IMG/VR virus record: IMGVR_UViG_3300045988_172164
Source of the DNA: a virus
Length of the DNA: 49,190 nt
Strand: one strand, 5' to 3'
Shown: piece after piece, positions 6,632 through 27,644 of the stretch
Layout of the letters: every line of letters starts with the position of its first letter
Position numbering within the stretch: the stretch's first letter is position 1
Notes under the pieces: model-generated
The model's input: the letters and a program-made list of their open reading frames with translations, nothing else
What the model was told of the DNA's origin: nothing
Database searches by the model: none
Program-made: the position numbers and the translations under genes

Positions 6632-6676
6632 ATTATGCTATTTTATTAAATAGTTCGCGCGCGTATGTGCATTCTA

Positions 6677-9940: not shown

Positions 9941-10324
9941 ATGGTTAAAACGTACTACCGGAATGAATATTCCGACAAACAGTGGAAAGCTTTGATTGAC
10001 GAGGCCGCGGAACTGGGTTGCCAGGTAACTTATGGCCGATATGGCGACCGTGCCGAGATTGACTCGACAGACCGAGAGAATGCCGTGCTCCAGAGCACTG
10101 GCAAGAGTGTTGATGACTGCGCGGCTCGAAGCTTCTGGGCGGAGCATATCCACCAGATGCTGCAGGAGAGCACAGACCTCAGAAGGTGGAAAGTGCAGCC
10201 CAAGAGATACCACAAAGGCTATTGCCCAACTATCTGCAAGAGTCAGAAGTCAGCAGAACATGAGCAGGAGCGCCTCGAGAGAATAACAGGCTTTGAGTGG
10301 ACAATAGTAGTAATACCGGAGTAG
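9941..10324 (+). CDS. hypothetical early protein
   Basis: 127-aa ORF with GC-rich codon usage. The opposite-strand ORFs across it look like shadows. Confidence 0.6.
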   Translation: MVKTYYRNEYSDKQWKALIDEAAELGCQVTYGRYGDRAEIDSTDRENAVLQSTGKSVDDCAARSFWAEHIHQMLQESTDLRRWKVQPKRYHKGYCPTICKSQKSAEHEQERLERITGFEWTIVVIPE

Positions 10325-10325
10325 T

Positions 10326-10967: not shown

Positions 10968-10988
10968 CATAAAAATACTCAAAAACAG

Positions 10989-11019
10989 TGCTCTATATCA
11001 AAAATAAGTAGTATATTTA
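10989..11019 (+). promoter_or_regulatory. early promoter P4 (-7 box TATATTTA)
   Basis: ...AGTATATTTACATATG resembles P1. It is preceded by a TTTTTAACATAAAAA box and lies 55 nt upstream of the ATG at 11074. Confidence 0.5.
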
Positions 11020-11073
11020 CATATGAAACTTAAATAATAAACGTTTTAATAACAATTCAAAATTTACAGTATT

Positions 11074-12225
11074 ATGGCAACAAAAAAATTTGCTCAGATG
11101 GCAACCAAGAAGCTGAACGCCCTTATGGCAACAGCAAGTGATGAAGACAAGAAGGCTATCGAGGCCGTACTTGCAGCTCGTGAACAGGCTCAGACTCCTG
11201 CAGCCGCAGAGGAAGCCCCCGTAGCAGAGGAAACTCCGCTCACTCCCGAAGAAGAAGCAGCTATCGAGGCAGCTGAAGAAAATGGCGGACTTAACCCGCT
11301 CTACAATGGCAGTAAGGCAACTCAGGAGAAAAAGCCGAAGATGACCGACGAAGAGCGTCACACTTTAGCTGAAGAGCTGAAGAAGAACATCAATCATCGC
11401 TGTCAGGCAGTTCCATTCAACACCGCAGAATGGGTTGACGGTTATATTGCCGGAGTGATTGAGGAGAAGCGCAGCAACAAGGTGCTCTACGCAATTAAGA
11501 CTGATGATGGGCGCCGCATCGTTAAGGTGCATGACAGCAATCTCGTTCGTATTTTCGACGAGGTGGTTGAGCCGGAGAAGAAGGTCCGCACTCGCAAGGC
11601 GAAAGACGGTGACGTCGAGAAAGTTGAATGGACGCCGGAAGCAATCGCCACTGCCGTAAATGAGGTTATCGGCAACGTCGGCAAGGCGGTTAAATTCGAG
11701 AAGTACCGCACGACTGACCCGGAGACTGGCGAAGAGAAAATCGAGTACAACGAAGGCCGTATTGTGGCTATCGTGCCCGACAAGCGTGCTCAGCGACTTC
11801 TCTACCGCATTTCAGTTCCTGCTCCGATTGAGGGCAATCCGCTGGCAACCAAAATCATGCACAAGGTTGTTACTGCAGACCTCGAAATTGCTGAGGCATT
11901 TGATGCCGAAGGCGAAGAGCTCAACAAGAAGTATTGCGAGCGCCGTGAGGCCGCAGCTACTCGCACCCCGCTTACTCCTCAAGACCGTTTCGTAAAATGC
12001 GAAGAGGCTTTGAAGAAGGCCGAAGAGAAGTTGCAAAAAGCAACTGAAGAGCTGGAAGCCAAGAAGCAGCAGCTCGAGGATGCTCGCAAGGAGTTGGATG
12101 AATGGCTCGCAGGTCAGGGTGCTAGCCCTGCCGAGGCTCCAGCAAAAGAGACAGCCGAAGCTCCCGCCGAAGCTCCCGCCGAAGCTCCCGCTGAGGCAAC
12201 TGAAGAGACTGACCCACTTGCATAA
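11074..12225 (+). CDS. acidic early protein with low-complexity E/A/P termini and two SH3/Tudor-like internal repeats (inferred)
   Basis: 383 aa. It has an N-terminal duplicated MATKK motif, EEAPVAEETPLTPEEE, and a C-terminal (EAPA)x3. The internal segments GYIAGVIEEKRSNKVLYAIKTDDGRRIVKV and GRIVAIVPDKRAQRLLYRISV look duplicated. Confidence 0.65.
   Translation: MATKKFAQMATKKLNALMATASDEDKKAIEAVLAAREQAQTPAAAEEAPVAEETPLTPEEEAAIEAAEENGGLNPLYNGSKATQEKKPKMTDEERHTLAEELKKNINHRCQAVPFNTAEWVDGYIAGVIEEKRSNKVLYAIKTDDGRRIVKVHDSNLVRIFDEVVEPEKKVRTRKAKDGDVEKVEWTPEAIATAVNEVIGNVGKAVKFEKYRTTDPETGEEKIEYNEGRIVAIVPDKRAQRLLYRISVPAPIEGNPLATKIMHKVVTADLEIAEAFDAEGEELNKKYCERREAAATRTPLTPQDRFVKCEEALKKAEEKLQKATEELEAKKQQLEDARKELDEWLAGQGASPAEAPAKETAEAPAEAPAEAPAEATEETDPLA
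12157..12192 (+). repeat. 12-nt tandem repeat x3 (GAAGCTCCCGCC) encoding EAPA repeats
   Basis: Units are read directly at 12157, 12169 and 12181. The last unit has one substitution. Confidence 0.85.
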
Positions 12226-13762: not shown

Positions 13763-13805
13763 AAATATAGCGGGAGAATACATTGAGTAATTTCCCGCTA
13801 TATTT
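13763..13805. terminator. bidirectional terminator hairpin between convergent gene sets
   Basis: 13-bp perfect stem AAATATAGCGGGA / TCCCGCTATATTT with a 17-nt loop. There are A/T runs on both sides. Confidence 0.75.
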
Positions 13806-14515
13806 TATTCTTCCCGTATAACGAGAGAATAACCTAAAGCTCGCTTAGTTACAATCGATATTCTCTCATCCATTTTAAGATAATTTCGTAAATGGCATAT
13901 ATTTACATCTAAGCTGCGTTTATTCCAATAATTATTTTCTCCTCGCCATAGTCTTTGCATTATTACACTTGTTTGCAATACTTCACCCTCATACGCACAA
14001 AGCAAAGCAAGCAATTGAGTTTCTTTAGCAGGGAGCTTTATTTCAGTATTATCTATAGCAAGTGTATCATTGAGAACATCAAATCTGTAATTGCCTAATT
14101 GATAAGCATTTTGAATTGTTCTTGTCTTTATGCCACATCTTTTAAGAGCTATATTTATTTTGCGCACGAGTATTTCAAGATTATATGGCCTGATTATATA
14201 GTCATCTGCTCCTTCATCATAAGCTTCAATTATGAATTGGTATTTTGACAAATCAGAAACCATAATAACAGGTGTAGACTTATCTGCTTTGCGTAAAATT
14301 TTCAATAAAGATAAGTTGCCTATACCTACAGATTTATAATGACTTAAAATGCATAAATCGTAACCGCCGTTTTTTATCTTCCGCATTATATCTTCTCTGT
14401 TTGAAGTTATAACATCAAAACCGTAGAATATAAGGTAGTCAACCATTACGCTACAGTCTTCATCTTGATAAACAAGAATTTTTGGTTGTGATATAGCATC
14501 TTTAGAAGTTTTCAT
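13805..14515 (-). CDS. OmpR/PhoB-family response regulator (REC + winged-helix) with degenerate receiver
   Basis: The C-terminal Trans_reg_C signature is present: LPAKETQLLALLCAYEGEVLQTSVIMQRLW...RSLDVNICHLRNYL...IVTKRALGYSL. The N-terminal receiver fold has QDED, but YDLCILS sits where DLVLLD is expected, and RPY sits where KPF is expected. Confidence 0.8.
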   Translation of the reverse strand: MKTSKDAISQPKILVYQDEDCSVMVDYLIFYGFDVITSNREDIMRKIKNGGYDLCILSHYKSVGIGNLSLLKILRKADKSTPVIMVSDLSKYQFIIEAYDEGADDYIIRPYNLEILVRKINIALKRCGIKTRTIQNAYQLGNYRFDVLNDTLAIDNTEIKLPAKETQLLALLCAYEGEVLQTSVIMQRLWRGENNYWNKRSLDVNICHLRNYLKMDERISIVTKRALGYSLVIREE

Positions 14516-15372
14516 AAACCATCAATTTTATTTTTTAAGTCGTTAAACAGTATTTCGAACCAAAATGGATTTAACCTAAGCAGGTCGAAATAAGAATATA
14601 CGCCTTTACGGACTATCATAGAGGCATATTTTAATTCTTTTTCTGCTCTTACCTTATTATGCGTATTATAAGACGCAACAGCCTTATCTATGTTTATAAG
14701 ATAATTTGCATACTTTATTGACTTTTGGAGCTCTGCTTGTTCTGTATTCTGCTTGAAATAGTAAGGTATATCAGGCATTGCCCAGAATGTTTGTCCTTCG
14801 CCATATTCTTCACTTGCTCTATATAAAAAACCAGGACACTCTTTCATCGACTCTGGATATATCATTTTACAAATCCTAATCCTTCTTGGTATTAACGGAT
14901 TGATAAGAGTTGCTAATCTTTTATTTATATAAGTTGCATATTTCTCTACCATCCTAGTATGCTCAGCAGTAAGTAAAGTTATAAGCAACTTAAGATTATC
15001 ATTTCCTATAGGGTCACTAAGCCGTAAATAATCCTGATTAAAAGCCATTCGCTGTATGGTAATTCTATCTTCTTTAAGCTTTCTACGCTTTGTCTCTCGA
15101 GTTCTTTGCGCTTTTTTATAGGCTTCAATAATAGCAGGCTTACTGAAGAAATACTTACCGAATTTTCGCCAAGCATCGTCTCCATAGTAAGCCTCTATCA
15201 TTGCATTTTCTTCTGACTCAGATAATTCAGTATGCTCTTCTTCAAGTTCTATCTTTTCAATAGCTTCGTTTTGAGCTTCCTCAATTTCTTCATCATCGCC
15301 TTTTATTTCGCTGAGAAACTCAAGATATTCCTTATCTGTTAAGTCACCATATCTTTCTTCAATGTTTTCCAT
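14512..15372 (-). CDS. hypothetical protein (acidic N-terminus)
   Basis: 286-aa ORF with a 4-nt overlap with the downstream regulator gene. Confidence 0.6.
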   Translation of the reverse strand: MENIEERYGDLTDKEYLEFLSEIKGDDEEIEEAQNEAIEKIELEEEHTELSESEENAMIEAYYGDDAWRKFGKYFFSKPAIIEAYKKAQRTRETKRRKLKEDRITIQRMAFNQDYLRLSDPIGNDNLKLLITLLTAEHTRMVEKYATYINKRLATLINPLIPRRIRICKMIYPESMKECPGFLYRASEEYGEGQTFWAMPDIPYYFKQNTEQAELQKSIKYANYLINIDKAVASYNTHNKVRAEKELKYASMIVRKGVYSYFDLLRLNPFWFEILFNDLKNKIDGL

Positions 15373-15544
15373 GCCAGGTAAACAAATGCTTAATTATATC
15401 TTTGCCAACTGTCTTTTCAAGCATTCCAAAATAGGAAATTGCTAGCACCAATCTTGCTACTTTATGAAGCAGCCAAGAGGCAATATATACTGGAGCATAT
15501 ATTATTCCAAGGCATATCCATACGAATTTAGCTATCTTTTTCAT
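15359..15544 (-). CDS. small membrane protein
   Basis: 61 aa with two hydrophobic segments (FVWICLGIIYAPVYIASWLL, LVLAISYFGML). Confidence 0.45.
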   Translation of the reverse strand: MKKIAKFVWICLGIIYAPVYIASWLLHKVARLVLAISYFGMLEKTVGKDIIKHLFTWHGKH

Positions 15545-15918
15545 ATTTTTTTTACACTGATTGTTGATTTATTATCTCCCTTATTTGTTCCTTCATCTTC
15601 AGCTTGTTTTAGTTCAACACAGGTTCTATGAAAAGCTTCATCGCCTATTCCTTTAATAAAGGTTCTAAGCACAAAAGGATATTCACTCGTATCTATAGTT
15701 TTACCAACTACTTCAGCATAGAGAGCTGCAAGAACTTTAGGCTCAAACACTTTCTTTTCCTGAAGTCTATCTATAGGACCTCTTTTGAATTGAACACCTG
15801 GATGCTCATACGTTATCTTCGTACGAGTTAGTAATAAATCTTTAATCAAAGCCCCAATATGCTTTTCAAACTGAGGCATTTGTATCACATCAATTACCTT
15901 TAAGTCTGCTACTTTCAT
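15541..15918 (-). CDS. hypothetical protein
   Basis: 125-aa ORF within the operon. Confidence 0.55.
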   Translation of the reverse strand: MKVADLKVIDVIQMPQFEKHIGALIKDLLLTRTKITYEHPGVQFKRGPIDRLQEKKVFEPKVLAALYAEVVGKTIDTSEYPFVLRTFIKGIGDEAFHRTCVELKQAEDEGTNKGDNKSTISVKKI

Positions 15919-16600
15919 TTTCCAGTTTTTTAAGTTGTTCTTTATAGAAGTTTTCTTTCATATCCCAATGCCTCTCGTATATATGGAGGTCATGAGCAAA
16001 GTGGTAATATGTACCTATAGGCAAACCAAGTTCATCAGCTACTAACTGTTGAAGCTTAGTCCAGCAATACTGGTCATTGCAAAAGCCATAAACCAAATCA
16101 TTGCTTCGCATAGTTACACACATATCAAGAGTTTCGATGCCCGGCTTAATATCAAAGCCTACAGACAAAGTGCAAGGAGTATCATATTTATAATCATCCT
16201 TCTCTTTGCCATCAAAGATTGTAAACCAAGCTTGGCGAGTGTCTTTATTTTCTTTGAGCTGCTCAATGCACTTTGCTAGTTGCTTATTGCGCATCCATTG
16301 CCAACCATAGTTTGAATTGACTATGTTATCGCCTCCATGCATTTTATCCCATATAGGAGCAAACTTCTTAATCTCTGCTACGCTTCTATTGCCTGACATA
16401 TACCAGGCATATTCGCGTTCAGCATATCGTTTGTTGAATTTGCGCCATTCTGTTGTTATAATGCGCTGCTGAGGATTACGTAGATAAAAGCCAACATTGT
16501 AAACAGCCTTTGTTCCAACATTAGTTTTTATCCCTTGGCCTATAATAAAGTCGTATAGGTCCTCAAAAGCCTCAGTTGCATTTTTATATATTATGTTCAT
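15890..16600 (-). CDS. deoxycytidylate 5-hydroxymethyltransferase-like enzyme (T4 gp42 branch of thymidylate synthase superfamily)
   Basis: Its sequence blocks match the T4 gp42 sequence as I recall it: EREYAWYMS, NSNYGWQWM, DTPCTLS (catalytic Cys), MRSNDLVYGFCNDQYCW and HDLHIYERHW. Asp occupies the base-specificity position (CND, versus RND in gp42 and FNI in ThyA). Confidence 0.75.
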   Translation of the reverse strand: MNIIYKNATEAFEDLYDFIIGQGIKTNVGTKAVYNVGFYLRNPQQRIITTEWRKFNKRYAEREYAWYMSGNRSVAEIKKFAPIWDKMHGGDNIVNSNYGWQWMRNKQLAKCIEQLKENKDTRQAWFTIFDGKEKDDYKYDTPCTLSVGFDIKPGIETLDMCVTMRSNDLVYGFCNDQYCWTKLQQLVADELGLPIGTYYHFAHDLHIYERHWDMKENFYKEQLKKLENESSRLKGN

Positions 16601-16758
16601 GCTTCTTCATATTCAAAGTTTAACACTAGAGTTGCGCCATAATCATACCAGAGAACTTCTTCAAGCTCTTCTTTTGTATGGCAGTTATATCGATACATCT
16701 CAGCTTCTAAGTCAGCAGGACTATCTATTATAAGAGTATTTTCAGCTATCGTTGCCAT
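16597..16758 (-). CDS. hypothetical small acidic protein (start moved to internal ATG)
   Basis: The ATG at 16758 lies 1 nt after the upstream TGA stop. The longer 75-aa version would overlap the upstream gene by 65 nt. Confidence 0.4.
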   Translation of the reverse strand: MATIAENTLIIDSPADLEAEMYRYNCHTKEELEEVLWYDYGATLVLNFEYEEA

Positions 16759-16759
16759 A

Positions 16760-17218
16760 TCACTTAACAAGTTTATTCGTATTGCTATTGTAAACTCTAA
16801 ACAAAAGCTCTTCGGCTTCATCATTCATGGCTTTGCATATAGCTAATGCTTCTTCCATGGATAAATCTTTGAGCTCTTCATCATCGTCATTAAAAGCAAT
16901 TTCACCAGTTATTACTCTAATCTCAAACGAATTGGTTAAAGCAAATGTTTTAGCTGCATCAAGTGCTTGTATGCATATATAATGTACAGCATCCCAATAT
17001 ATGTATGATAAGGTATTTGAGCCATCTAGTATCTTGATATATAATTCTCTCAACTTCTCAGGCTTAAACATACCTCTCTCTTCCATTCTGGCCCATTCTT
17101 TAAGCCAATGCTTTCCATAGCCATTATACTTCTTAAATTCTTTGGTATAATGCTCTACAAATTTAAGAAACTGGTCTGTATAAATAACCTCTGGTATTTC
17201 TACTGCTTTCTTTTTCAT
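16760..17218 (-). CDS. hypothetical protein
   Basis: 152-aa ORF preceded by a 120-bp gap that contains an inverted repeat. Confidence 0.55.
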   Translation of the reverse strand: MKKKAVEIPEVIYTDQFLKFVEHYTKEFKKYNGYGKHWLKEWARMEERGMFKPEKLRELYIKILDGSNTLSYIYWDAVHYICIQALDAAKTFALTNSFEIRVITGEIAFNDDDEELKDLSMEEALAICKAMNDEAEELLFRVYNSNTNKLVK

Positions 17219-17233
17219 TGCTTAAGATTTATA

Positions 17234-17320
17234 TATTCTCATGCGCTCTAGAGCCCATGCGTTTTTCTGAATATATTTCTTTTGTTTCATACTTTGCACG
17301 TGATATTACGCATGAGAATA
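17234..17320. promoter_or_regulatory. 12-bp perfect inverted repeat TATTCTCATGCG / CGCATGAGAATA bracketing a -7-like box
   Basis: 17234..17245 is the reverse complement of 17309..17320. TATATTCA (minus strand, 17275..17268) lies between them. The half-site resembles the ATTCTCGCATG box at 4799. Confidence 0.55.
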
Positions 17321-17338
17321 ATGCATAAATCAATCCAT

Positions 17339-17833
17339 TTAATAACTTCCAGTCGAGCCCAGAGCTCCATCACCTCTTTCAGAGGAACGGCTGAAAAGCT
17401 CTGCTTCAGGTACTTCTTCAAGTCCTTCATAAGACACGGGCACAAGAATAAACTGCGCTATCTTCATACCTGGTTTAATATGAACTTTGGCTCTACCAAC
17501 ATTTACAACATGGATATGTATTTCTCCCTGATAGTCTTCATCAACAATTTTGGCACCGAGTATAACAATACTTTCAAATGCCTCTGCCTTTGGTGTTCTA
17601 CCAACTCCAAGGCATGCCCATTTAGAAGTTACTACACCGGATTTGTCAGCGGCCATAAGCATATAGCCCTCGGGAATTTCCATCTTAATACCAGACGGTA
17701 TAAGAACATCAGTTCCTGGATTGACTATAAAGCCTTTGTTACCGCCAAAATTTGGAACGAAGAAATCAATTCCAGCAGCTTTACCAGTTCCACGAACTGG
17801 AGACTTTACATTTCTTATTTTGCAGAATTTCAT
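17339..17833 (-). CDS. dut: dUTPase-family trimeric dNTP pyrophosphatase (dUTPase or dCTPase)
   Basis: The five dUTPase motifs are recognisable: AAGIDFF, IPSG, GAKIVDEDYQGEI, GMKIAQ and RGDGALGSTG. The start is placed at MKFCKIRN (17833), which aligns with the Dut N-terminus. The upstream 36 codons were judged spurious. Confidence 0.8.
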   Translation of the reverse strand: MKFCKIRNVKSPVRGTGKAAGIDFFVPNFGGNKGFIVNPGTDVLIPSGIKMEIPEGYMLMAADKSGVVTSKWACLGVGRTPKAEAFESIVILGAKIVDEDYQGEIHIHVVNVGRAKVHIKPGMKIAQFILVPVSYEGLEEVPEAELFSRSSERGDGALGSTGSY

Positions 17834-17978
17834 ATTACTTCTTTTTATTACTTGGTTTTTCTTTGTAGCCACTTGCGTAAATGGCTCTTGCTTGTTTCTC
17901 TGCTTGAGCTTTGGTAGGATAAACCTTACCATGAGTACCAAATTGGTAACCTCCTTTTACTTTATGTACTGGCATACT

Positions 17979-18365
17979 TCAGAATTTTATATTAAGCTTC
18001 ATAATCTCTCGAGCTGCAAGTGCCATTGCTTTTTGCATGTATTCTACAGCCTCTTTGTTCTTTCTACCGTACTCAGCTAATCCAGATTTTTCAAAAGCAT
18101 CAGCTATAATCATCTCGAGCTTATTCATACGATTATCGGTGTTGATACTGAACTTCTTAAGAAGTTCATGGTTGTACTCGTACTTAACACCACCATTTAC
18201 TGGAGTAACTTTGGCTATTTCTGCATGAGTTTGGCCATTCTTCTTTTCAGGAATTGTAATAACAATTTCCTGGTCTGTAGTCATGCACATATCTGTGCAC
18301 ATTTCCATTACTTCACCAAAATGGCGCTTAAACTCACGAGGAATTACTGAAATCAAACTTTTCAT
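17979..18365 (-). CDS. hypothetical protein
   Basis: 128-aa ORF within the operon. Confidence 0.55.
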   Translation of the reverse strand: MKSLISVIPREFKRHFGEVMEMCTDMCMTTDQEIVITIPEKKNGQTHAEIAKVTPVNGGVKYEYNHELLKKFSINTDNRMNKLEMIIADAFEKSGLAEYGRKNKEAVEYMQKAMALAAREIMKLNIKF

Positions 18366-18371
18366 ATCTTG

Positions 18372-19193
18372 TTACATTAAATCGTCATTGAATAAAGTTG
18401 GTTGTTCTGCTGGAGCTTTAGGAGCTTTTATGTCTCCGGGTTTGCGCTTCAATACCCAAAGAGTGTTGCGCGCCACATCAGGGAACATAGGAGCCATGAT
18501 ATTGGCAATGAGGTTTGAGTCATAATAGCTCTTAAGAGCCTCGAACATCTTTTTCTGCCAATCATTCATGAGAGGCTTGTAGTCCTTTATAGAAGCAAAT
18601 GTGCCAAACTTCTTTACAATAGTAAAGTGTTGAGACAGTATAGCTTCAAGCTCCCAATGGTCAAACTCTTGTACATCGACCCCGCGGCCATCACCAGAGT
18701 CATAGGTATGATTACCTGCTGCTCCTACTTCTGGGTCATAGTTAGGAGTTGAAAGGTAATAAGTAGCATTGTTATTGCCACACGCCTTGAAGTTCTCAAG
18801 AAATACATGAGCATTCTGTTTTCCTACATGCTCAAGCACCTCAAAGGTACATACCTTATCAGCATTGAATTTGCTGAAGTCCAAGTCATGTTTTACAAGG
18901 TCAGCTACATAGAAATGAGCCCAAGGCACATCCTGATATTTCTCGGCTGCTTCATTGATAGTCTTTTCACGAATATCAATGCCAATATACTCTTTCTGCT
19001 TGAACTTGTTTCGATACAATACTTCAAGCAAGTTAGCTGCTCCACAACCAAAGTCTACGATTGACTCACCGATTTTTGCTTCTTTGAGAATGTGCGTCCA
19101 ACGCAAGTAATGCGCAAACTGATCTCTGTGGAATACGTGACGCTCAAAGGCCTGGTCTGGTCTGAGGTCTGTTGTGTTATACACTTTTGCCAT
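18372..19193 (-). CDS. class I SAM-dependent methyltransferase (substrate unknown)
   Basis: Motif I is VDFGCGAANLLEVL, followed by the acidic post-I residue in IGIDI, and then FEVLEHV. I recognised no DNA-MTase motif IV (DPPY or PC). Confidence 0.7.
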   Translation of the reverse strand: MAKVYNTTDLRPDQAFERHVFHRDQFAHYLRWTHILKEAKIGESIVDFGCGAANLLEVLYRNKFKQKEYIGIDIREKTINEAAEKYQDVPWAHFYVADLVKHDLDFSKFNADKVCTFEVLEHVGKQNAHVFLENFKACGNNNATYYLSTPNYDPEVGAAGNHTYDSGDGRGVDVQEFDHWELEAILSQHFTIVKKFGTFASIKDYKPLMNDWQKKMFEALKSYYDSNLIANIMAPMFPDVARNTLWVLKRKPGDIKAPKAPAEQPTLFNDDLM

Positions 19194-19205
19194 AATTAAA
19201 ACTGT

Positions 19206-19496
19206 TTATTTATTGAAAATATCTTTATGCTCTTCCAGATAGTCATTCATAGAGCCCATATAAGCTACCGCATCAAGAAGATTATCCTCTTTATGTGCAT
19301 AAGCTTCACGTGATAACTTAAGAGCTATCATGGCTCTATACATGCCAGCAGTTGTTATTTGCTGGTCTTTAGGCGACATCAAATTATAAAGAACTGCTGC
19401 TCTTTCCATTGATGCTTGGAATGGCCCGTATTGGCGCTCTTTTTCTTCTGAACGCTCATTTACAATTTTGTTTGCTTGTTCTAATATGTTACTCAT
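19206..19496 (-). CDS. small helical protein of a widespread phage family; possible nucleotide pyrophosphohydrolase (weak)
   Basis: 96 aa with ANKIVNERSEEKERQYG...LKLSREAYAHKEDNLLDAVAYMG. The pattern recalls small phage proteins often found beside thymidylate-synthase-like genes, and also all-alpha NTP-PPase acidic pairs. Confidence 0.3.
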   Translation of the reverse strand: MSNILEQANKIVNERSEEKERQYGPFQASMERAAVLYNLMSPKDQQITTAGMYRAMIALKLSREAYAHKEDNLLDAVAYMGSMNDYLEEHKDIFNK

Positions 19497-19687
19497 ACCT
19501 TAAAGTTACTTATTATTTTGTCTTTTAACTCTTTGTTGTTCTCAAGCATTTCAACGAAAATATCTGCTGCAACATTTATGCTAAACTGCCTCATATCATC
19601 GTTATCTTTGAAATACTGAAGAAAAGCAATAATTTCTCTAAGCATCTCGTTGTTTTCTTTGAGCAGCTTTAGCATTTCTTCCATCAC
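19493..19687 (-). CDS. hypothetical small protein
   Basis: 64 aa with 4-nt overlaps on both sides. Confidence 0.5.
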   Translation of the reverse strand: MMEEMLKLLKENNEMLREIIAFLQYFKDNDDMRQFSINVAADIFVEMLENNKELKDKIISNFKV

Positions 19688-19923
19688 AACATAGATTTTA
19701 GTTCTGCTTTTAATCGTCTAGCATCTGCTCCTCTGAATGTTTGAGCGTTGGCTAAGAAGTATCTTGTAATATCTCCAGCTGTCTCAATTCCATATAGAGC
19801 TTCTGGGTCTGTTGTATCAAGCGTTAATAATGCCTCAAGATAAGGCACTGCTCCAAAGTATACATTCATCCAAGTTGACTTTATGTCTTTGGCTATTTGC
19901 TGAAATGTTCTTTTCTTGTCCAT
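19684..19923 (-). CDS. hypothetical protein
   Basis: 79 aa. It is the first gene after the promoter at 19949..19956. Confidence 0.55.
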   Translation of the reverse strand: MDKKRTFQQIAKDIKSTWMNVYFGAVPYLEALLTLDTTDPEALYGIETAGDITRYFLANAQTFRGADARRLKAELKSML

Positions 19924-20867: not shown

Positions 20868-22310
20868 CTACATGAATTTTTTATATTTGTCAATTTTTGC
20901 TTTAATACTATCCATAAGAGCATTCTGCTTTCTGTCTTTTGCTTTAAGTGCTCTGATAACGTCTTCATCATGAGTGCCTTGCAATATCAAGTGGTTAATT
21001 ACTACATGATTTTGTTGACCTTGACGGTATAATCGAGCATTGAATTGTTGATACAGCTCTAAGCTCCATGTCTGTCCAAACCAAACTATTATGCTGCCTC
21101 CTGCTTGAAGATTAAGTCCATGGCCTGCTGATGCCGGATGCGCGAGCATAACTTGTATTTTGCCTGCATTCCAGTCTTCAATATCTTTATTGGTTTTAAG
21201 CTCTCTTGGCTTATATGCTTTAAGATGCTTCATTATTCTATCGCGGTCAAATTGATAAGTCCATGCAACTAATACAGATTGGCCATTTGCATCCTCGATT
21301 ATTTCCTTAAGAGCATCTAGCTTTATATCATGAATTGGAAACACGTTTCTTTCTTCATCGTATATTGCACCATTGGCAAATTGTAATAGTTTATTCGAAA
21401 GAGCTGCTGCATTAACAACATTAACTTCAACAGGCTTTTCTACCATTACAGAATTGCCATTTTCATCCTCTTCTTCTACCGTCTCAACAGTATTTATGAG
21501 GTCAAGCACTTTGTTCTTTTCGAAGTCATCATATTGCTTTTTTAAGTCATCAGGCATCCTAAGCTTTATATAGTTATCTGTCCTGAATGGCATTTCAAGA
21601 TAATCATCAGCTTTCATGCTTATGCAAATATCCTCTATTTTCTTATGAATGAGCTTCTCTGAGTCATCCATAAGATTATAAGAATAGACAACATGCCCAT
21701 TAGTTTGACCTGGCCGGAAATATCTTTTTCTGTATCTGGATATTGTCTTTTCAAGGCGCTCGCCTCTATCCATAAGGTATATTTGAGGCCACAAGTCAAT
21801 AAGTCCATTAGGTGCCGGAGTGCCAGTTAGTCCAACTAAGCGCTTAAGATAAGGTCTTGCTCCACGCAAAGCCTTAAAACGTTCAGACTTATAAGACTTA
21901 AAGCTGCTAAGCTCATCAACTACTACCATATCAAATGGCAATTTACCTCCGCCATACATAGCACATAGCCATGCAACATTATCTCTTGATATAATATAGA
22001 CATCAGCTTTTGTTTCTGTTATAGCATGTATACGCTGTTTCTGAGTGCCAATGATTTTTGAAAAGCGCAAATGCTTTAAGTGGTCCCACTTTTCAGCTTC
22101 TTCTTGCCATACAGACTCAGCAACTCTTTTTGGCGCTATGACTAATACTGAATTTATTTCCAGATAGTCAAACATCAAATAGTTTATAGCAGTAAGAGTT
22201 GATACCGTTTTGCCAAGCCCGAGGTCAAGAAATACACCACAGTATGGATGAGTAATTATGAACTCTACTGTTGCTCGCTGATAGCCATGCATGTTTTTTT
22301 CTGTTAGCAT
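20868..22310 (-). CDS. SNF2-family DNA-dependent ATPase/helicase
   Basis: Motif I is LGLGKT, motif II is VVVDELS, and motif VI-like is RLYRQGQ. Confidence 0.85.
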   Translation of the reverse strand: MLTEKNMHGYQRATVEFIITHPYCGVFLDLGLGKTVSTLTAINYLMFDYLEINSVLVIAPKRVAESVWQEEAEKWDHLKHLRFSKIIGTQKQRIHAITETKADVYIISRDNVAWLCAMYGGGKLPFDMVVVDELSSFKSYKSERFKALRGARPYLKRLVGLTGTPAPNGLIDLWPQIYLMDRGERLEKTISRYRKRYFRPGQTNGHVVYSYNLMDDSEKLIHKKIEDICISMKADDYLEMPFRTDNYIKLRMPDDLKKQYDDFEKNKVLDLINTVETVEEEDENGNSVMVEKPVEVNVVNAAALSNKLLQFANGAIYDEERNVFPIHDIKLDALKEIIEDANGQSVLVAWTYQFDRDRIMKHLKAYKPRELKTNKDIEDWNAGKIQVMLAHPASAGHGLNLQAGGSIIVWFGQTWSLELYQQFNARLYRQGQQNHVVINHLILQGTHDEDVIRALKAKDRKQNALMDSIKAKIDKYKKFM

Positions 22311-22744
22311 TTTGAAAACCTCCCATCTTTACAATGAAGTTTTGCATGCTCAGCTTGCGAACTTAAAACTTCTAAGTTATCAATAGAGTTATTTCTAGGA
22401 TTGCCGTCTTTATGGTGTACTACTTCACCTTTCTTAAGTGGTCTTCCTATTACTTCTTCCGCTAGTATTCTATGTGCATGAGTTCCAAATATCTTAGGAT
22501 AACTGTGCTCTTTTCCAGTATTATTCCTAAGATGACCTTCTCTAACAGCTAACCTTGTTTCAAAGTTATCCATTCTAGTAGGATTTAAGTCCTCATTCAT
22601 CTTAGTCATTTTTATGCTTAAATGCTCTTTAGCACAAGTTCTGCTGCAAAAGAAATGAGTAATGCCAGGCTTTATCATACTTTTATATCGTATGAATTGC
22701 TTTCCGCATTTTTCACAAGCTAATAATATCTTTTCGCCTCTCAT
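22304..22744 (-). CDS. HNH homing endonuclease with N-terminal zinc ribbon
   Basis: VVHHKDGNPRNNSIDNLEVLSSQAEHAKLH, plus CEKCGKQF...CSRTC. Confidence 0.85.
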   Translation of the reverse strand: MRGEKILLACEKCGKQFIRYKSMIKPGITHFFCSRTCAKEHLSIKMTKMNEDLNPTRMDNFETRLAVREGHLRNNTGKEHSYPKIFGTHAHRILAEEVIGRPLKKGEVVHHKDGNPRNNSIDNLEVLSSQAEHAKLHCKDGRFSKC

Positions 22745-25638: not shown

Positions 25639-27615
25639 CTAATCTTTCAAATAGAATGGCGTAGTATAGCCATCGGCTCTCAATGGAAGGTCAGATGCCC
25701 ACTCAGGAGGAGTGCCCATAATTCTTGCCATTTCCTCATAATATACTTGCGCATTCTCTTCTGGAACTTCAACAAGGCATTCATCGTGAATATGGCATAC
25801 TGGATAATAACCTGCACTCTCGAGTTGAAGCATAGAACTACCAAGCAAATCACGAGCTATTGCCTGTACTATGTTCTCTGTTAGTTTACCACCATAAGTA
25901 TCTATTTCTCCCCATTGCTTAGTCTCTTGTACAACTCCTTGATAGCATAATACTCGAGTTGGCATTGTAGACCTGCCTATTTTCTTATCTTTGAACCGTG
26001 GCCCATAGTAGAATAACTTTCTACCAGAAGGCAATTGAATTGTCATAAATTCACCGTCACAGTCAAAGATTATTTTTCTGCATGTACATGAAACTGGTCT
26101 TTGGTAACGAACAGCTTCTTTTGAAGCTTCATCAATTTCCTTCCACATATCTACAATTGCAGGATTTGCCATGCGCCACTTGCGTACCAGGCTCATCATT
26201 TCAGTGTCTGATAAACCCATTCGCTCACCACCCATTCGCTTAAGTGCTCCTAATGAGCCTTCATAACCAAGTGCAAGCTCTGAGATTTTTGATTTGTCGC
26301 GGAGTACTGAGCCTTTGGTAATTGATGAAATGGGCACATTAAACATCTTTGCGCCTGTTGCTTCATAAATCTTACCATCACCTCTAAATACATCCATGCG
26401 CCATTTTTCATTAGCAAGCCAAGATATAACTCGTGCCTCAATGGCTGAGAAGTCTGCAACGCTAAATACTTTGCCTTTTGGAGCAATAAGTGCTGTTCTT
26501 ACAAGTTGCGAAAGAATATCTGCAACATCATCATACATCATCTCAACTGTTTCCCAATCACGAGCTCTGATTAGCTCACGCGGTACTTCAATATGTGATA
26601 TGTGGTTTTTTGATAAGTTCTGCAACTGCAATAATCTACCTGCCCATCTACCAGTTCTATTTGCACCATAGAATTGGAATGTACCTCTAACTCTATGGTC
26701 TTTCATAGCGCAGTTGAGCATAGCATAATACTTCTTAATCGAAGTTTTTGATAGCTTTTTACGTATATTGAGCAACTCAATTACGTCTGGATAATCTGCA
26801 AACTCTTTAAGTAAGTCAGGCATTGTTTCTTTTGAAAGTGACAATACAGCATTGCCTGTTTTCTTTTCTATCCATTGTCGAATTTGTACAGGTGAATTTG
26901 GATTTTCAAGGCCTGTTAACTGCTGAGCATGCTGAGTTAATATAGAAGTATAAGTATTATCTACTGCAATAGCAGACTCTGCTAACTCCATATCCACCAA
27001 AATACCTCTATCATTGATATTCTGGTCAAGCACGTACATTTCTCGCTCAATCTTTGGAATGATATAAGACTCTAATCTATGAAATATCTCGCGCTCAGCC
27101 AAGACATCATATTTATTATACTCTTTATACATTTCCCACTTCTCAGGAGCATGTTCTGGATAATTGCGTGTACGCATTCCATTAACTCGAGTTGCTTTGC
27201 ATGGGCATGAGAAGTACTTAATAAGCGCTTTACCAGTATCGAGCTTCTTATCTGTAAGATTAAGAGCCTTTGATACTCCATCCAATGAAAGTGGTAAACC
27301 ACAATATGCAGCTTTTACTGAAGTACAATACCACTGTTCTGCTGGAACATTATAACCTACTCGCTTAAAACTAAGTCGCTCAAATACTGCATTATGAGCA
27401 ACTTTTATGCACTCTGGGTCAAGCAATGCTTCTTCAAACTCTTCAGGCATTTCTTCGCCTTGAGCTAAATCAACAATGTTAACTGGTCCATCATCTAATG
27501 CATATCCTATAATCAGTATCTCAAAGTCTGGTGACTCTATATATTTATAGGCACCAGAGTCTTTAATATCTACTGAGGAAAATGTTTCGACGTCTATAAA
27601 AAGATATTTCGCCAT
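25639..27615 (-). CDS. family A DNA polymerase with 3'-5' exonuclease domain
   Basis: Exo I is FIDVETFS. Motif A is VADFSAIEARV, motif B is KISELALGYEGS, and motif C is HIHDECLVEV. Confidence 0.9.
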   Translation of the reverse strand: MAKYLFIDVETFSSVDIKDSGAYKYIESPDFEILIIGYALDDGPVNIVDLAQGEEMPEEFEEALLDPECIKVAHNAVFERLSFKRVGYNVPAEQWYCTSVKAAYCGLPLSLDGVSKALNLTDKKLDTGKALIKYFSCPCKATRVNGMRTRNYPEHAPEKWEMYKEYNKYDVLAEREIFHRLESYIIPKIEREMYVLDQNINDRGILVDMELAESAIAVDNTYTSILTQHAQQLTGLENPNSPVQIRQWIEKKTGNAVLSLSKETMPDLLKEFADYPDVIELLNIRKKLSKTSIKKYYAMLNCAMKDHRVRGTFQFYGANRTGRWAGRLLQLQNLSKNHISHIEVPRELIRARDWETVEMMYDDVADILSQLVRTALIAPKGKVFSVADFSAIEARVISWLANEKWRMDVFRGDGKIYEATGAKMFNVPISSITKGSVLRDKSKISELALGYEGSLGALKRMGGERMGLSDTEMMSLVRKWRMANPAIVDMWKEIDEASKEAVRYQRPVSCTCRKIIFDCDGEFMTIQLPSGRKLFYYGPRFKDKKIGRSTMPTRVLCYQGVVQETKQWGEIDTYGGKLTENIVQAIARDLLGSSMLQLESAGYYPVCHIHDECLVEVPEENAQVYYEEMARIMGTPPEWASDLPLRADGYTTPFYLKD

Positions 27616-27644
27616 TATTTCTTAATTTGATATTATAAAATTAG

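What the first reader, a model, noticed from the sequence alone, without database searches (positions are those of the whole stretch)
15890..19496. T4 gp42-like dCMP hydroxymethylase island predicts non-canonical (5hmC-type or further modified) virion DNA
ORF 15890..16600 carries the blocks I remember from T4 gp42: EREYAWYMS, NSNYGWQWM, catalytic Cys in DTPCTLS, MRSNDLVYGFCNDQYCW and HDLHIYERHW. At the base-specificity position, ThyA has Asn (PFNIAS) and gp42 has Asp179 (RND). This ORF has Asp (CND), which argues for cytosine rather than uracil.

The same leftward operon carries three other relevant genes:
- A dUTPase-fold enzyme at 17339..17833 could act as a dUTPase or a dCTPase.
- A small helical ERxxxYG...KEDNLLD protein at 19206..19496 might be a nucleotide pyrophosphatase.
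- A class I SAM methyltransferase at 18372..19193 has no recognisable DNA-MTase motif IV.

These are interleaved with seven ORFs of no recognisable function (14512..15918, 16597..17218, 17979..18365, 19493..19923). I could not recognise a dNMP kinase or a glycosyltransferase. If hmC is made, its downstream processing could therefore be unconventional. The methyltransferase and the unknown ORFs are candidates for a new decoration step.
Basis: partly seen in the sequence, partly recalled or inferred. Interest (0 to 1): 0.72.

Follow-up and report, generated by a model that had tools for sequence, protein, structure and literature searches.

The report
Phage cytosine-modifying gene cluster with methyltransferase
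A common gut Bacteroides-type phage carries an enzyme predicted to make 5-hydroxymethyl-dCMP, and beside it an uncharacterised methyltransferase that accompanies this enzyme type in many unrelated phages, which points to an undescribed way of chemically altering the cytosines of phage DNA.

Summary
ORF 15890-16600 (-) is a thymidylate-synthase-fold enzyme, closest in the PDB to MilA and T4 gp42. It has every residue linked to dCMP hydroxymethylation: catalytic Cys, Asp at ThyA-N177, Asp three residues before the Cys (ThyA-L143), Thr at H147, Glu58, and Ser167/Arg126 (deoxyribose type). It keeps Asp169, so it is not a 5-hydroxy-dCMP synthase.

The new result concerns the class I SAM methyltransferase at 18372-19193. 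It is not a bystander. Its family lies within 3 kb of a TS-like gene with the same signature in 15 of 17 distinct locus types. A dCTPase-type enzyme (MazG-like or dUTPase-fold) is usually there too, often with a dNMP kinase and a dCMP deaminase.

- One member, Stenotrophomonas phage AXL3, has DNA that resists all 35 tested restriction enzymes with G/C in their sites.
- SAM-recycling genes flank the methyltransferase in two lineages.
- The methyltransferase has Hen1-like DFGCG / ExxEH / H motifs and no DNA-methyltransferase motifs.

DUF6378 (19206-19496) is a frequent methyltransferase neighbour but shows no MazG-like fold. The other unknown ORFs are specific to this phage clade. The chemical product is unproven, and near-absence of GATC argues against blanket protection from restriction.

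The parts
15890..16600 (-). Thymidylate-synthase-fold enzyme, predicted dCMP 5-hydroxymethylase (gp42-type)
   Evidence: Pfam PF00303 1.9e-25. Best PDB matches are MilA at 1.8e-17 and T4 gp42 at 4.9e-16; the best ThyA scores 3.6e-12. Residues in ThyA numbering: E58, W80, Y94, R126, D at Cys-3 (L143 equivalent), C146, T147, S167, N168, D169, G173, D177, H207, Y209. Cultured B. fragilis phage homologues at 60% identity are annotated deoxycytidylate 5-hydroxymethyltransferase.
17339..17833 (-). Trimeric dUTPase-fold nucleotide pyrophosphatase. It sits in the module slot that a MazG-like NTP pyrophosphatase fills in other lineages.
   Evidence: Pfam dUTPase 5.3e-16 and phrog_135 3.5e-29. It is the best-conserved protein of the 17 operon proteins compared across relatives, about 96% identical in 80 loci. 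A dUTPase-fold gene also lies in the module in L086 and L105, where other lineages have MazG/PRA-PH.
18372..19193 (-). Class I SAM-dependent methyltransferase of an uncharacterised family with a Hen1-like motif pattern; candidate second step of the base modification
   Evidence: Only generic methyltransferase Pfam models match. The best PDB sequence matches are bacterial and plant Hen1 methyltransferase domains at 6e-5. The AF2 model has pLDDT 87, and Foldseek finds only generic class I methyltransferases (TM about 0.5) among the 50 best matches shown, none of them a DNA methyltransferase. D47-F-G-C-G51, E118, E121, H122, H162, R23, R31 and R242 are near-invariant in 112 representatives clustered at 50% identity. 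It is linked to a TS-like gene in 15 of 17 locus types.
19206..19496 (-). DUF6378 four-helix protein lying directly upstream of the methyltransferase gene (12 bp apart here; abutting or overlapping it in several sister modules); possible methyltransferase partner, function unknown
   Evidence: Pfam DUF6378 4.5e-11. It lies directly upstream of the methyltransferase in the window clade and in L089-L096 and L103. AF2 pLDDT is 87. There is no PDB structural neighbour and no similarity to MazG profiles. The domain is widespread in phages.
14512..15918 (-). Three ORFs of unknown function (14512-15372, 15359-15544, 15541-15918), specific to this phage clade
   Evidence: No Pfam, PHROG or NCBIfam match for the two submitted (14512-15372, 15541-15918); the 61-aa ORF 15359-15544 was not submitted. 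They are kept in the 80 close relatives, and two of them in BF486P2 at 44% identity. They are absent from the modules of other lineages.
16597..17218 (-). Two ORFs of unknown function (16597-16824, 16760-17218) between the dUTPase and the TS-like gene
   Evidence: No family match for 16760-17218; the 75-aa ORF 16597-16824 was not submitted. 16760-17218 is kept in the clade and at 39% identity in BF486P2. 16597-16824 is variable.
17979..18365 (-). ORF of unknown function in a variable slot between the methyltransferase and the dUTPase
   Evidence: About 57% identical in relatives. Most relatives carry an extra 154-aa nucleotidyltransferase-like gene here. L103 and L044 carry a SAM-synthetase-like gene instead.
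19493..19923 (-). Two small ORFs (19493-19687, 19684-19923) upstream of DUF6378
   Evidence: 19684-19923 matches phrog_13953, of unknown function, at 2.5e-23. 19493-19687 is present in only some relatives.
25639..27615 (-). Family A DNA polymerase, which would have to accept the modified dCTP analogue
   Evidence: phrog_17 DNA polymerase 2.8e-135. Relatives carry PF00476. Its role with modified nucleotides is inferred, not tested.

Best explanation
The island is a pre-replicative cytosine-replacement module of a roughly 50-kb Bacteroides-type siphophage.

**Step 1 (inferred).** The dUTPase-fold enzyme (17339-17833) hydrolyses dUTP, and possibly dCTP, to monophosphates.

**Step 2 (well supported by sequence).** The TS-like enzyme (15890-16600) uses methylene-tetrahydrofolate to convert dCMP into 5-hydroxymethyl-dCMP. 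The Asp at the N177 position selects cytosine. The acidic residue three positions before the catalytic Cys admits water, so the product is hydroxymethyl rather than methyl.

**Step 3 (inferred).** Host kinases raise it to the triphosphate, since no phage kinase was recognised here. Sister modules in other phages do carry a dNMP kinase. The phage family A polymerase then incorporates it.

**Step 4 (linkage shown, chemistry speculative).** The SAM-dependent methyltransferase (18372-19193), perhaps assisted by DUF6378 (19206-19496), acts in the same pathway. This is a high-flux methylation of the modified nucleotide or of the modified DNA. The most economical candidate is O-methylation of the new 5-CH2OH group, giving 5-methoxymethylcytosine.
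For: **TS-like enzyme**
- Pfam PF00303. PDB ranking is MilA, then gp42, then ThyA.
- The residue signature matches gp42 (MRSNDxxxGFxND, D-x-x-C-T). It differs from Xp12 (5mC), which has N at Cys-3, P147 and S168. It differs from RB69 gp48 (5hoC), which has N169.
- S167 and R126 indicate a deoxyribose substrate (with criteria).

**Role other than thymidylate supply**
- Sister phages carrying the same methyltransferase plus TS-like pair also encode ThyX (L086; AXL3 gp50).

**Methyltransferase linkage**
- The pair is kept in 80 of 80 close relatives wherever sequence is available.
- The methyltransferase family is found next to a TS-like gene with D(-3)/D169/D177 in L086, L089-L096, MW202510, AXL3/PW916, MW202621, L104, L105 and L108-L110.
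- L104 combines the window-type methyltransferase (65% identity) with the AXL3-type TS. The two genes therefore stay together even when their subfamilies reassort.
- Only 5 of 50,697 GenBank phage records hold the methyltransferase, and all 5 have the module. TS homologues occur in about 4% of records.

**High flux**
- SAH hydrolase and MetK flank the methyltransferase in L087.
- A SAM-synthetase-N-domain protein follows it in L103 and L044.

**Experimental hint**
- AXL3 DNA is cut by only 2 of 37 enzymes, both with AT-only sites.

**O-methyltransferase-like chemistry**
- DFGCG, E118-x-x-E121-H122 and H162 are near-invariant. They mirror the SAM motif and the four Mg/Mn ligands of HEN1. Hen1 proteins are the best PDB sequence matches.
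- There is no DPPY or PC motif, and no DNA methyltransferase among the 50 best fold matches shown.
Against: - No measurement of DNA chemistry exists for this phage or any close relative.
- The residue rules are correlations drawn from a limited set of tested enzymes.
- No dNMP kinase is recognisable in the window. T4 needs one for hm-dCMP.
- Cultured cousins (BF486P2 group) have the TS-like gene without the methyltransferase or DUF6378, so the methyltransferase is not required for the TS-like enzyme to be useful.
- One large phage contig has the methyltransferase with no TS-like gene within 10 kb.
- The Hen1 resemblance is weak: 26.6 bits against a family cutoff of 340; PDB E=6e-5. In Hen1 the metal binds a ribose 2',3'-diol, which 5hm-dC lacks.
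- Structure search shows cap guanine-N7 and small-molecule N- and C-methyltransferases as equally good neighbours.
- GATC is almost absent (2 observed, about 102 expected). The DNA is therefore not immune to all sequence-specific nucleases.
Confidence: 0.55

Rival explanations
1. Plain 5hmC genome. The TS-like enzyme makes 5hm-dCMP and the DNA carries undecorated 5-hydroxymethylcytosine. The methyltransferase serves another purpose, such as Hen1-like 2'-O-methylation of RNA 3' ends, cap-like or tRNA methylation, or methylation of a metabolite. It merely sits in the early-gene nucleotide-metabolism block.
For: - Hen1 and cap guanine-N7 methyltransferases are the nearest characterised relatives by sequence and fold.
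- BF486P2-type phages manage with the TS-like gene alone.
- L087 has the methyltransferase without a nearby TS-like gene.
Against: - The methyltransferase is adjacent to a hydroxymethylase-type TS in 15 of 17 locus types from phages of Bacteroidota-like, Xanthomonadaceae and other hosts. Gene order is shuffled and subfamilies are reassorted.
- No RNA-repair partners (Pnkp, ligase) are present.
- Flanking SAM-recycling genes imply stoichiometric rather than catalytic-scale methylation.
Confidence: 0.22
2. 5-methylcytosine genome of the Xp12 type. The TS-like enzyme reductively methylates dCMP, and the surrounding genes (pyrophosphatase, and deaminase in sister modules) are the known 5mC module, in which a deaminase turns 5m-dCTP into dTTP.
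For: - Asp at N177 alone also fits dCMP methylases.
- TS-homologue, deaminase and PRA-PH neighbourhoods are reported for 5mC phages. Sister modules have the same three genes.
Against: - Every methyltransferase-linked TS-like protein has Asp at Cys-3 and Thr (one Asn, in L090) at 147, as gp42 and MilA do. Xp12 has Asn at Cys-3 and Pro at 147.
- No DHFR gene lies next to it, unlike in Xp12.
- ThyX co-occurs in L086 and AXL3, so thymidylate need not come through 5mC.
Confidence: 0.1
3. Ordinary nucleotide-supply genes. The TS-like protein is a divergent thymidylate synthase, the dUTPase is a plain dUTPase, and virion DNA is canonical.
For: - Source annotations call homologues 'thymidylate synthase'.
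- dUTPase plus TS is a common phage pair.
- Strong GATC avoidance is typical of phages with unprotected DNA.
Against: - Asp rather than Asn at position 177, Thr at 147 and Asp at the L143 equivalent. These are the positions that separated modified from unmodified contigs experimentally.
- All NCBIfam thymidylate-synthase equivalog scores are far below cutoff, at most 75 bits against 108-576.
- ThyX co-occurs in sister modules.
Confidence: 0.06
4. 5-hydroxycytosine pathway. The TS-like enzyme is a flavin- and O2-dependent 5-hydroxy-dCMP synthase, and the methyltransferase makes 5-methoxycytosine.
For: - TS homologues with D177 and an acidic L143 equivalent can be 5hoC synthases.
- A hydroxyl directly on the ring would be a good O-methyl acceptor.
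Against: - The diagnostic D169N change is absent in the window protein and in all 16 methyltransferase-linked TS-likes. RB69 gp48 has it.
- Glu58 and Trp80, which are replaced in RB69 gp48, are kept here.
- The reaction needs O2, and the cultured cousins infect the anaerobe Bacteroides fragilis.
Confidence: 0.03

Closest known systems
T4 hydroxymethylcytosine pathway (gp56 dCTPase/dUTPase, gp42 dCMP hydroxymethylase, gp1 dNMP kinase, alpha/beta-glucosyltransferases)
   Same: - A TS-fold enzyme with the gp42 active-site signature.
- A nucleotide pyrophosphatase in the same operon.
- Action at the nucleotide-pool stage.
- Sister modules add a dNMP kinase.
   Different: - Only about 30% identical to gp42.
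- The pyrophosphatase here has the trimeric dUTPase fold and showed no similarity to gp56.
- No kinase and no glycosyltransferase in the window.
- A SAM methyltransferase sits where T4 has none in its pathway.
Xp12-type 5-methylcytosine module (TS homologue, dCMP-family deaminase, PRA-PH/MazG)
   Same: The same gene set of pyrophosphatase, deaminase and D177 TS homologue occurs in the sister modules L089-L093, AXL3, MW202510 and L104-L110.
   Different: - The TS-likes here carry Asp at Cys-3 and Thr147. Xp12 has Asn and Pro.
- No DHFR is adjacent.
- The extra SAM methyltransferase is not mentioned in the text passages retrieved by term search from the two MetaGPA papers; their figures and domain lists were not read.
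5-hydroxymethylcytosine carbamoyltransferase pathway (MetaGPA, eLife 2021)
   Same: The concept matches: a D177 TS homologue makes 5hmC, and a second enzyme transfers a small group to the hydroxymethyl oxygen.
   Different: The second enzyme here is a class I SAM methyltransferase, not a carbamoyltransferase. Neither its product nor its substrate is known.
Hen1 / HEN1 RNA 3'-terminal 2'-O-methyltransferases
   Same: - The best sequence matches among solved structures.
- A shared DFGCG SAM motif, an ExxEH motif and a downstream His. In HEN1 these bind Mg/Mn and the acceptor hydroxyls.
- A shared STPN motif after strand 5.
   Different: - The score is far below the family threshold (26.6 against 340 bits).
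- There are no Hen1 N-terminal or RNA-binding domains and no Pnkp partner.
- A family-specific N-terminal HRDxxxHxxRW motif and C-terminal APxFPxxxRNxxW motif are present.
- The genomic context is pyrimidine deoxynucleotide metabolism.
Bacteroides fragilis phages BF486P2 / BF503P1-P4 (GenBank OP172667-72)
   Same: These are the closest cultured relatives: portal 77%, helicase 75%, TS-like 60% and dUTPase 55% identical. The TS-like gene is annotated deoxycytidylate 5-hydroxymethyltransferase. They show the same GATC avoidance.
   Different: They lack the methyltransferase and DUF6378. Instead they carry a second, degenerate TS-like paralogue just upstream of dut, where the window has the methyltransferase and one unknown ORF.

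Membership tests
Thymidylate synthase superfamily (Pfam PF00303) | Profile match above the curated threshold over most of the domain | tested here: met
   90 bits against a cutoff of 24.3, residues 25-233 on profile positions 20-232 of 266.
dCMP hydroxymethylase (T4 gp42 type) | Catalytic Cys (ThyA C146) and general-base Glu (ThyA E58 / gp42 E60) | tested here: met
   C143 in DTPCT aligns with C146, and the E of AEREYAW aligns with E58.
dCMP hydroxymethylase (T4 gp42 type) | Asp in place of ThyA N177 (cytosine specificity) | tested here: met
   The Asp of 'FCND' lies in the N177 / gp42 D179 column.
dCMP hydroxymethylase (T4 gp42 type) | Acidic residue at the ThyA L143 equivalent, three residues before the Cys (water access, hydroxymethyl product) | tested here: met
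   D-T-P-C here, against D-F-M-C in gp42, D-V-A-C in MilA, L-A-P-C in ThyA and N-V-P-C in Xp12. MAFFT gap placement is ambiguous, so the fixed offset from the Cys was used, as the source paper implies.
dCMP hydroxymethylase (T4 gp42 type) | Deoxyribose-type pocket (Ser at ThyA 167, Arg at ThyA 126'), as opposed to the Ala/Lys of the CMP-specific MilA | tested here: met
   S167 and R126 are present.
dCMP hydroxymethylase (T4 gp42 type) | Enzyme converts dCMP and CH2-THF to 5hm-dCMP | not testable with these tools
   Needs an expression or in vitro assay.
5-hydroxy-dCMP synthase (RB69 gp48 type) | Asn in place of ThyA D169 | tested here: not met
   The window has Asp (MRSND); RB69 gp48 has Asn (MRSQN).
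dCMP methyltransferase (Xp12 type, 5mC) | D177 with a non-acidic residue at the L143 equivalent; usually accompanied by DHFR | tested here: not met
   The window has Asp at Cys-3; Xp12 has Asn. A DHFR gene lies two genes from the Xp12 TS, beyond the dCMP deaminase. None was found in the window.
Canonical thymidylate synthase ThyA | Asn177, His147, Leu143; score above the NCBIfam equivalog cutoffs | tested here: not met
   The window has D, T and D at these positions. The best NCBIfam thymidylate-synthase score is 75 bits against a cutoff of 327.
Trimeric dUTPase | Pfam PF00692 match and the five dUTPase motifs | tested here: met
   59 bits against a cutoff of 22. Read directly from the sequence: AAGIDF, DKSG (Arg to Lys in motif 2), VDEDYQGE, KIAQF, RGDGALGSTG. 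It falls below the NCBIfam dut cutoffs (79.7 against 102.6). dCTPase activity cannot be judged from sequence.
Hen1 RNA 2'-O-methyltransferase | Family-level profile score | tested here: not met
   TIGR04074 scores 26.6 bits against a cutoff of 340 and matches only the methyltransferase core.
Hen1 RNA 2'-O-methyltransferase | DFGCG SAM loop and the four metal ligands E-x-x-E-H ... H | tested here: inconclusive
   The pattern is present and near-invariant: D47FGCG51, E118, E121, H122, H162, matching the HEN1 description. Equivalence of the last His was not checked on a structure.
DNA methyltransferases (amino N6A/N4C, or C5) | Motif IV (D/N/S)PP(Y/F/W), or the catalytic Pro-Cys motif | tested here: not met
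   Neither motif is in the sequence or among the conserved columns. No DNA methyltransferase appears among the 50 best Foldseek matches shown.
MazG-like all-alpha NTP pyrophosphatase (proposed for DUF6378) | Profile or fold similarity to MazG / PRA-PH | tested here: not met
   No Pfam MazG or PRA-PH hit. hhalign against the module MazG-like proteins gives probability 0.2%. Foldseek against the PDB gives a best E of 2.5. BFVD returns mainly DUF6378 proteins, plus some unnamed or differently named entries.

The most novel reading that the evidence does not exclude
Abundant human-gut Bacteroides-type phages, and unrelated phages such as Stenotrophomonas phage AXL3, would replace cytosine by a base not yet described in DNA. 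This would be a SAM-methylated derivative of 5-hydroxymethylcytosine, most simply 5-methoxymethylcytosine. It would be made by a gp42-type hydroxymethylase plus a new Hen1-like, metal-dependent O-methyltransferase family acting on the nucleotide pool or on DNA. Some phages would bring their own SAM synthetase and SAH hydrolase to pay for it.
Probability: 0.2. Interest if true: 0.82.

Novelty: new variant of a known kind. Interest (0 to 1): 0.62.

Why it matters
Pyrimidine hypermodifications decide whether phage DNA survives restriction and CRISPR nucleases. They affect how viromes are sequenced, and they have supplied enzymes for epigenome mapping. The known decorations of 5hmC are sugars and a carbamoyl group.

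This module points to a SAM-dependent step coupled to a gp42-type hydroxymethylase. Its methyltransferase family has 142 clusters at 50% identity (E≤1e-30) and its function is unknown. The phage clade carrying it recurs often in public assemblies: single 90%-identity clusters hold hundreds to thousands of member sequences, and the HMP-style sample IDs and the Bacteroides fragilis host of the cultured cousins suggest a gut habitat.

A cultured member, AXL3, has DNA with an unexplained resistance to every G/C-site restriction enzyme tested. This gives an immediate experimental handle, so the identity of the AXL3 modification becomes directly testable.

If only the hydroxymethylase part holds, the finding is still a routine but useful prediction that this phage clade carries 5hmC-type DNA.

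Tried and rejected
1. **Phage dNMP kinase or glycosyltransferase in the window.** Pfam, PHROG and NCBIfam scans of the operon ORFs and of the other non-overlapping ORFs of 100 aa or more found none. The one Walker-A-like string, in 6677-7465, lies in a helical protein just upstream of the large terminase gene and has no PDB match. It was rejected as a kinase.
2. **DUF6378 as a MazG-like pyrophosphatase.** Rejected.
3. **Domain fusions of the methyltransferase family as a clue to the substrate.** Ten longer representatives showed no second Pfam domain. None contained TS, kinase, pyrophosphatase or DUF6378 segments.
4. **Structure search for a specific methyltransferase neighbour.** It returned only the generic Rossmann core (TM about 0.5), so no substrate call is possible.
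5. **A TS-like gene on the 193-kb contig that has the methyltransferase flanked by SAH hydrolase and MetK.** None lies within 10 kb either side, and the rest of the contig could not be fetched.
6. **Literature.** No paper in the library mentions methoxymethylcytosine, a function for DUF6378, or this methyltransferase in TS-homologue modules. No chemical identification of the AXL3 or PW916 modification was found.
7. **Megablast of the island against GenBank phages.** No match.
8. **The unknown ORFs as module members.** Rejected because they do not recur outside the clade and its B. fragilis phage cousins.
9. **The trimeric dUTPase compared with T4 gp56.** No detectable similarity.

Full report
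**What the window is**

The 49.2-kb window is almost a whole genome of a siphovirus-type phage. It encodes a portal, large terminase, major head protein, tape measure, family A DNA polymerase, primase-helicase, SNF2 helicase, Gp2.5-like SSB and exonuclease. It has no nucleotide-level match in GenBank phages. Its proteins are closest to the cultured Bacteroides fragilis phages BF486P2 and BF503P1-P4, with portal 77% and SNF2 helicase 75% identical. Very similar contigs of 48-53 kb recur in many public assemblies. Eighty IMG/VR loci carry the TS-like protein at 86-96% identity.

**The observation**

- 15890-16600 matches PF00303 at 1.9e-25.
- 17339-17833 matches the dUTPase family at 5.3e-16.
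- 18372-19193 matches only generic class I methyltransferase models.
- 19206-19496 is DUF6378.

The genes are tightly packed and co-directional from the SNF2 helicase down to an OmpR-type regulator.

**What the TS-like enzyme is**

Among solved structures it scores best against the CMP hydroxymethylase MilA (1.8e-17) and T4 gp42 (4.9e-16). The best thymidylate synthase scores 3.6e-12, and E. coli ThyA about 2.4e-7. It fails all NCBIfam thymidylate-synthase equivalogs by a wide margin.

Published work supplies residue rules in ThyA numbering:
- N177D gives cytosine specificity.
- An acidic residue at L143 goes with hydroxymethyl rather than methyl products.
- D169N marks the flavin- and O2-dependent 5-hydroxy-dCMP synthases.
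- H147 and N177 were the two positions that best separated experimentally modified from unmodified contigs.
- Ser167 and Arg126' mark deoxyribose-specific enzymes, against Ala/Lys in CMP-specific MilA.

I aligned the window protein with E. coli ThyA, T4 gp42 (5hmC), RB69 gp48 (5hoC) and the Xp12 enzyme (5mC). The window protein has E58, W80, Y94, R126, D at Cys-3, C146, T147, S167, N168, D169, G173, D177, H207 and Y209. Its 'MRSNDxxxGFxND' string is the same as in gp42. Xp12 has N at Cys-3, P147 and S168. RB69 gp48 has N169 and has lost E58 and W80. One caveat applies. The aligner places a gap just before the Cys, so I read the L143 equivalent by its fixed offset from the Cys. This reproduces the assignments of the source paper for gp42, RB69 and MilA.

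By all sequence criteria, then, this is a dCMP 5-hydroxymethylase. The GenBank annotators of the BF486P2 group reached the same name for the 60%-identical homologue.

**The methyltransferase is part of the module**

This is the main new result. Within the clade, the TS-like gene, dUTPase, methyltransferase and DUF6378 are all retained wherever the contig covers them. The methyltransferase family is strikingly conserved outside the clade, at 68-75% identity. I followed it into other contexts.

| Locus | Gene order or content |
|---|---|
| L086, a different 46-kb phage | dCMP deaminase, ThyX, DUF3310, unknown, methyltransferase, two small ORFs, dUTPase, TS-like |
| Five further IMG/VR locus types (L089-L096) | DUF6378, methyltransferase, small ORF, MazG-like pyrophosphatase, with or without dCMP deaminase, TS-like |

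Only five of 50,697 GenBank phage records contain a homologue (27-32% identity), and all five show the same neighbourhood:
- Podovirus MW202510 has methyltransferase, NTP-PPase, thymidylate kinase, 'pyrimidine hmase', deaminase and DNA polymerase.
- Stenotrophomonas phage AXL3 (two records), its relative PW916 and siphovirus MW202621 have methyltransferase, NTP-PPase, a P-loop kinase, TS-like and deaminase. In PW916 and MW202621 the kinase ORF is unannotated and was found by phmmer.

A scan of one genome per species gave eight more contigs:
- L108-L110 repeat the AXL3 order.
- L105 has methyltransferase, TS, dUTPase.
- L104 has TS, methyltransferase, kinase, NTP-PPase, deaminase. It pairs a window-type methyltransferase (65% identity) with an AXL3-type TS.

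The two genes thus stay adjacent although gene order, partner enzymes and even subfamilies change. That is the signature of functional coupling rather than shared descent.

In all, 15 of 17 distinct locus types with enough flanking sequence have a TS-like gene within 3 kb of the methyltransferase. The exceptions are L107, where the slot holds an HNH gene and masked bases, and the L087 contig. All 16 methyltransferase-linked TS-likes examined have D at Cys-3, D169, D177, S167 and R126, and T147 in all but one, which has N. TS homologues occur in only about 4% of GenBank phage records, so chance does not explain this.

**Flux and chemistry of the methyltransferase**

On the 193-kb phage-like contig L087, the methyltransferase (71% identical) lies between an S-adenosylhomocysteine hydrolase and a full-length SAM synthetase. 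In two members of the window's own clade (L103, L044), a 268-aa protein with the SAM-synthetase N-terminal domain follows the methyltransferase (Pfam 7.1e-11). Phages that bring SAM-regenerating enzymes next to one methyltransferase are paying for stoichiometric methylation. That fits one methyl group per modified base.

The family is sizeable. It has 142 clusters at 50% identity with E≤1e-30 and 477 with E≤1e-10. Across 112 full-length representatives, several residues are almost invariant: D47-F-G-C-G51, E118, E121, H122, S148-T-P150, N161-H162, E176 and the arginines R23, R31 and R242.

The best sequence matches among solved structures are bacterial and plant Hen1 methyltransferase domains (6e-5). 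HEN1 uses a DFGCG SAM loop, and Glu-x-x-Glu-His plus a downstream His bind the Mg/Mn ion that holds the acceptor hydroxyls. The same pattern, with similar spacing, is present here.

The AF2 model is confident (pLDDT 87). Foldseek, however, returns only the generic Rossmann core (TM about 0.5). Its neighbours are small-molecule N-, C- and O-methyltransferases, a Trm112-activated enzyme and mRNA cap guanine-N7 methyltransferases, with no DNA methyltransferase among the 50 best matches shown. The sequence has no DPPY-type or Pro-Cys motif.

My reading is a metal-dependent methyl transfer to an oxygen of a phosphorylated nucleotide-like substrate. The only new hydroxyl the module creates is the 5-CH2OH of 5hm-dCMP, which makes 5-methoxymethylcytosine the simplest product. 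This last step is inference. The Hen1 resemblance is far below family threshold, and Hen1's metal binds a ribose diol that 5hm-dC lacks. No paper in the library mentions such a base.

**Experimental hint**

The AXL3 paper reports that its DNA was cut by only 2 of 37 restriction enzymes, TasI and Tru1I, whose sites contain only A/T. All 35 enzymes with G or C in their sites failed. The authors concluded that G/C bases are altered in an unknown way. They read gp27-gp31 as a thymidylate pathway, although the phage also has ThyX. Under the present analysis, gp28 is a hydroxymethylase-type TS and gp31 is the methyltransferase of this family. I found no later identification of the modification.

**The other genes**

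- **DUF6378.** It sits directly upstream of the methyltransferase (a 12-bp gap in the window; abutting or overlapping in several sister modules) in the window clade and in L089-L096 and L103. It is absent from the AXL3-type, L086, L104 and L105 modules. Its model is a confident four-helix protein with no PDB neighbour. It does not resemble the MazG-like proteins of sister modules. The domain is widespread in phages and is sometimes fused to other proteins, including one annotated as an N6-adenine methyltransferase. A role as methyltransferase partner is possible. A pyrophosphatase role is not supported.
- **The dUTPase-fold protein.** It has the five dUTPase motifs, with Lys for Arg in motif 2. 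It lies in the module where a MazG/PRA-PH enzyme lies in other lineages. Whether it also hydrolyses dCTP cannot be told from sequence.
- **The eight unknown ORFs.** The five submitted to the family libraries have no informative match, the only hit being phrog_13953 (unknown function) for 19684-19923; the three shortest were not submitted. They recur only in the clade or in BF486P2, so comparative evidence does not implicate them.
- **Kinase.** No dNMP kinase was recognised in the window. Sister modules have one. Either host kinases suffice or one of the unknowns does the job.

**Evidence that tempers the claim**

- GATC occurs twice in 49 kb against about 102 expected. It is equally depleted in the clade, in BF486P2 and in L087, but not in L086, AXL3 or the spring-water phages. 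Whatever the DNA chemistry, it has not removed selection by a GATC-directed nuclease in this host range.
- The cultured BF486P2 group carries the TS-like gene without the methyltransferase.
- Nothing here measures nucleosides.

**Verdict**

- The hydroxymethylase call is well supported: a new member of a known kind, about 0.75.
- Modified cytosine in virion DNA is likely, about 0.65.
- The methyltransferase belonging to the same pathway is more likely than not, about 0.55-0.6.
- The specific product is a guess, about 0.2.

The module as a whole is best described as a new variant of the known TS-homologue-based pyrimidine modification systems. A cultured test case, AXL3, is available.

Noticed in passing
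window, whole; GATC only at 19121 and 37913: GATC is almost absent: 2 observed against about 102 expected from a Markov model. GATATC (1 against 19) and GAATTC (4 against 17) are also low. The same GATC depletion is seen in clade relatives, in BF486P2 (which also has CTAG 0 against 27) and in the L087 large-phage contig. It is not seen in L086, AXL3 or MW202510/MW202621.
   Followed up: partly
window 13805-14515 (-): A phage-encoded OmpR/RprY-type response regulator (Trans_reg_C 9.7e-15, Response_reg 1.7e-8) lies at the end of the operon. Aligned with PhoB, the phospho-acceptor Asp53 position holds Ser/His ('CILSH') and the conserved Lys is Arg. It looks like a phosphorylation-independent pseudo-receiver. 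It is kept in the clade at 53-98% identity.
   Followed up: partly
window 27644-27725 (-): ARAGORN reports an 82-nt tRNA-like gene between the DNA polymerase and SSB genes. It has an unassignable four-base anticodon call, 'ccat'.
   Followed up: no
window 10001-12000 (+ strand ORFs 10326-10967, 11074-12225): A block on the opposite strand has markedly higher G+C (0.48 against about 0.37 elsewhere) and positive GC and AT skew. Its ORFs have no useful family match. It may be a recently acquired cassette.
   Followed up: no
L001 (BF486P2) 6168-6929: The cultured cousin has a second TS-like paralogue just upstream of dut, where the window has the methyltransferase and one unknown ORF. It keeps the Cys, D at Cys-3, D169 and D177. 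It has lost E58 (Leu in the table; the local alignment is ambiguous), W80 (Lys) and G173 (Leu), so it may be non-catalytic or do something different.
   Followed up: partly
L087/L088/L102 (ENA 192.8-kb contig), locus L102 8557-12021: A large phage-like contig has the methyltransferase sandwiched between S-adenosylhomocysteine hydrolase (467 aa) and SAM synthetase (419 aa). It shares DUF6549 with the window (30905-31543). No TS-like gene lies within 10 kb either side.
   Followed up: partly
L103 7855-9115 and L044; L006 7663-8121: The slot between the methyltransferase and the dUTPase is variable. Most clade members carry a 154-aa gene with a minimal nucleotidyltransferase motif (GT...DIDI), which the window lacks. 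L103 and L044 additionally carry a short (268-aa) SAM-synthetase-like gene.
   Followed up: partly
window 22304-22744 (-) and 7452-8231 (-): An HNH endonuclease (HNH_3, 3.4e-14) sits between the SNF2 helicase and the primase-helicase. A protein with NUMOD1 and I-HmuI-like NUMOD domains sits two genes upstream of the large terminase gene, beyond ORF 6677-7465. Both look like homing-endonuclease-type insertions. L107 has an HNH gene exactly where the TS-like gene is expected.
   Followed up: no
L103 6203-6658: A clade relative carries a pyrimidine-dimer DNA glycosylase (Pyr_excise, 5.8e-9) just upstream of DUF6378. The window has no equivalent there.
   Followed up: no
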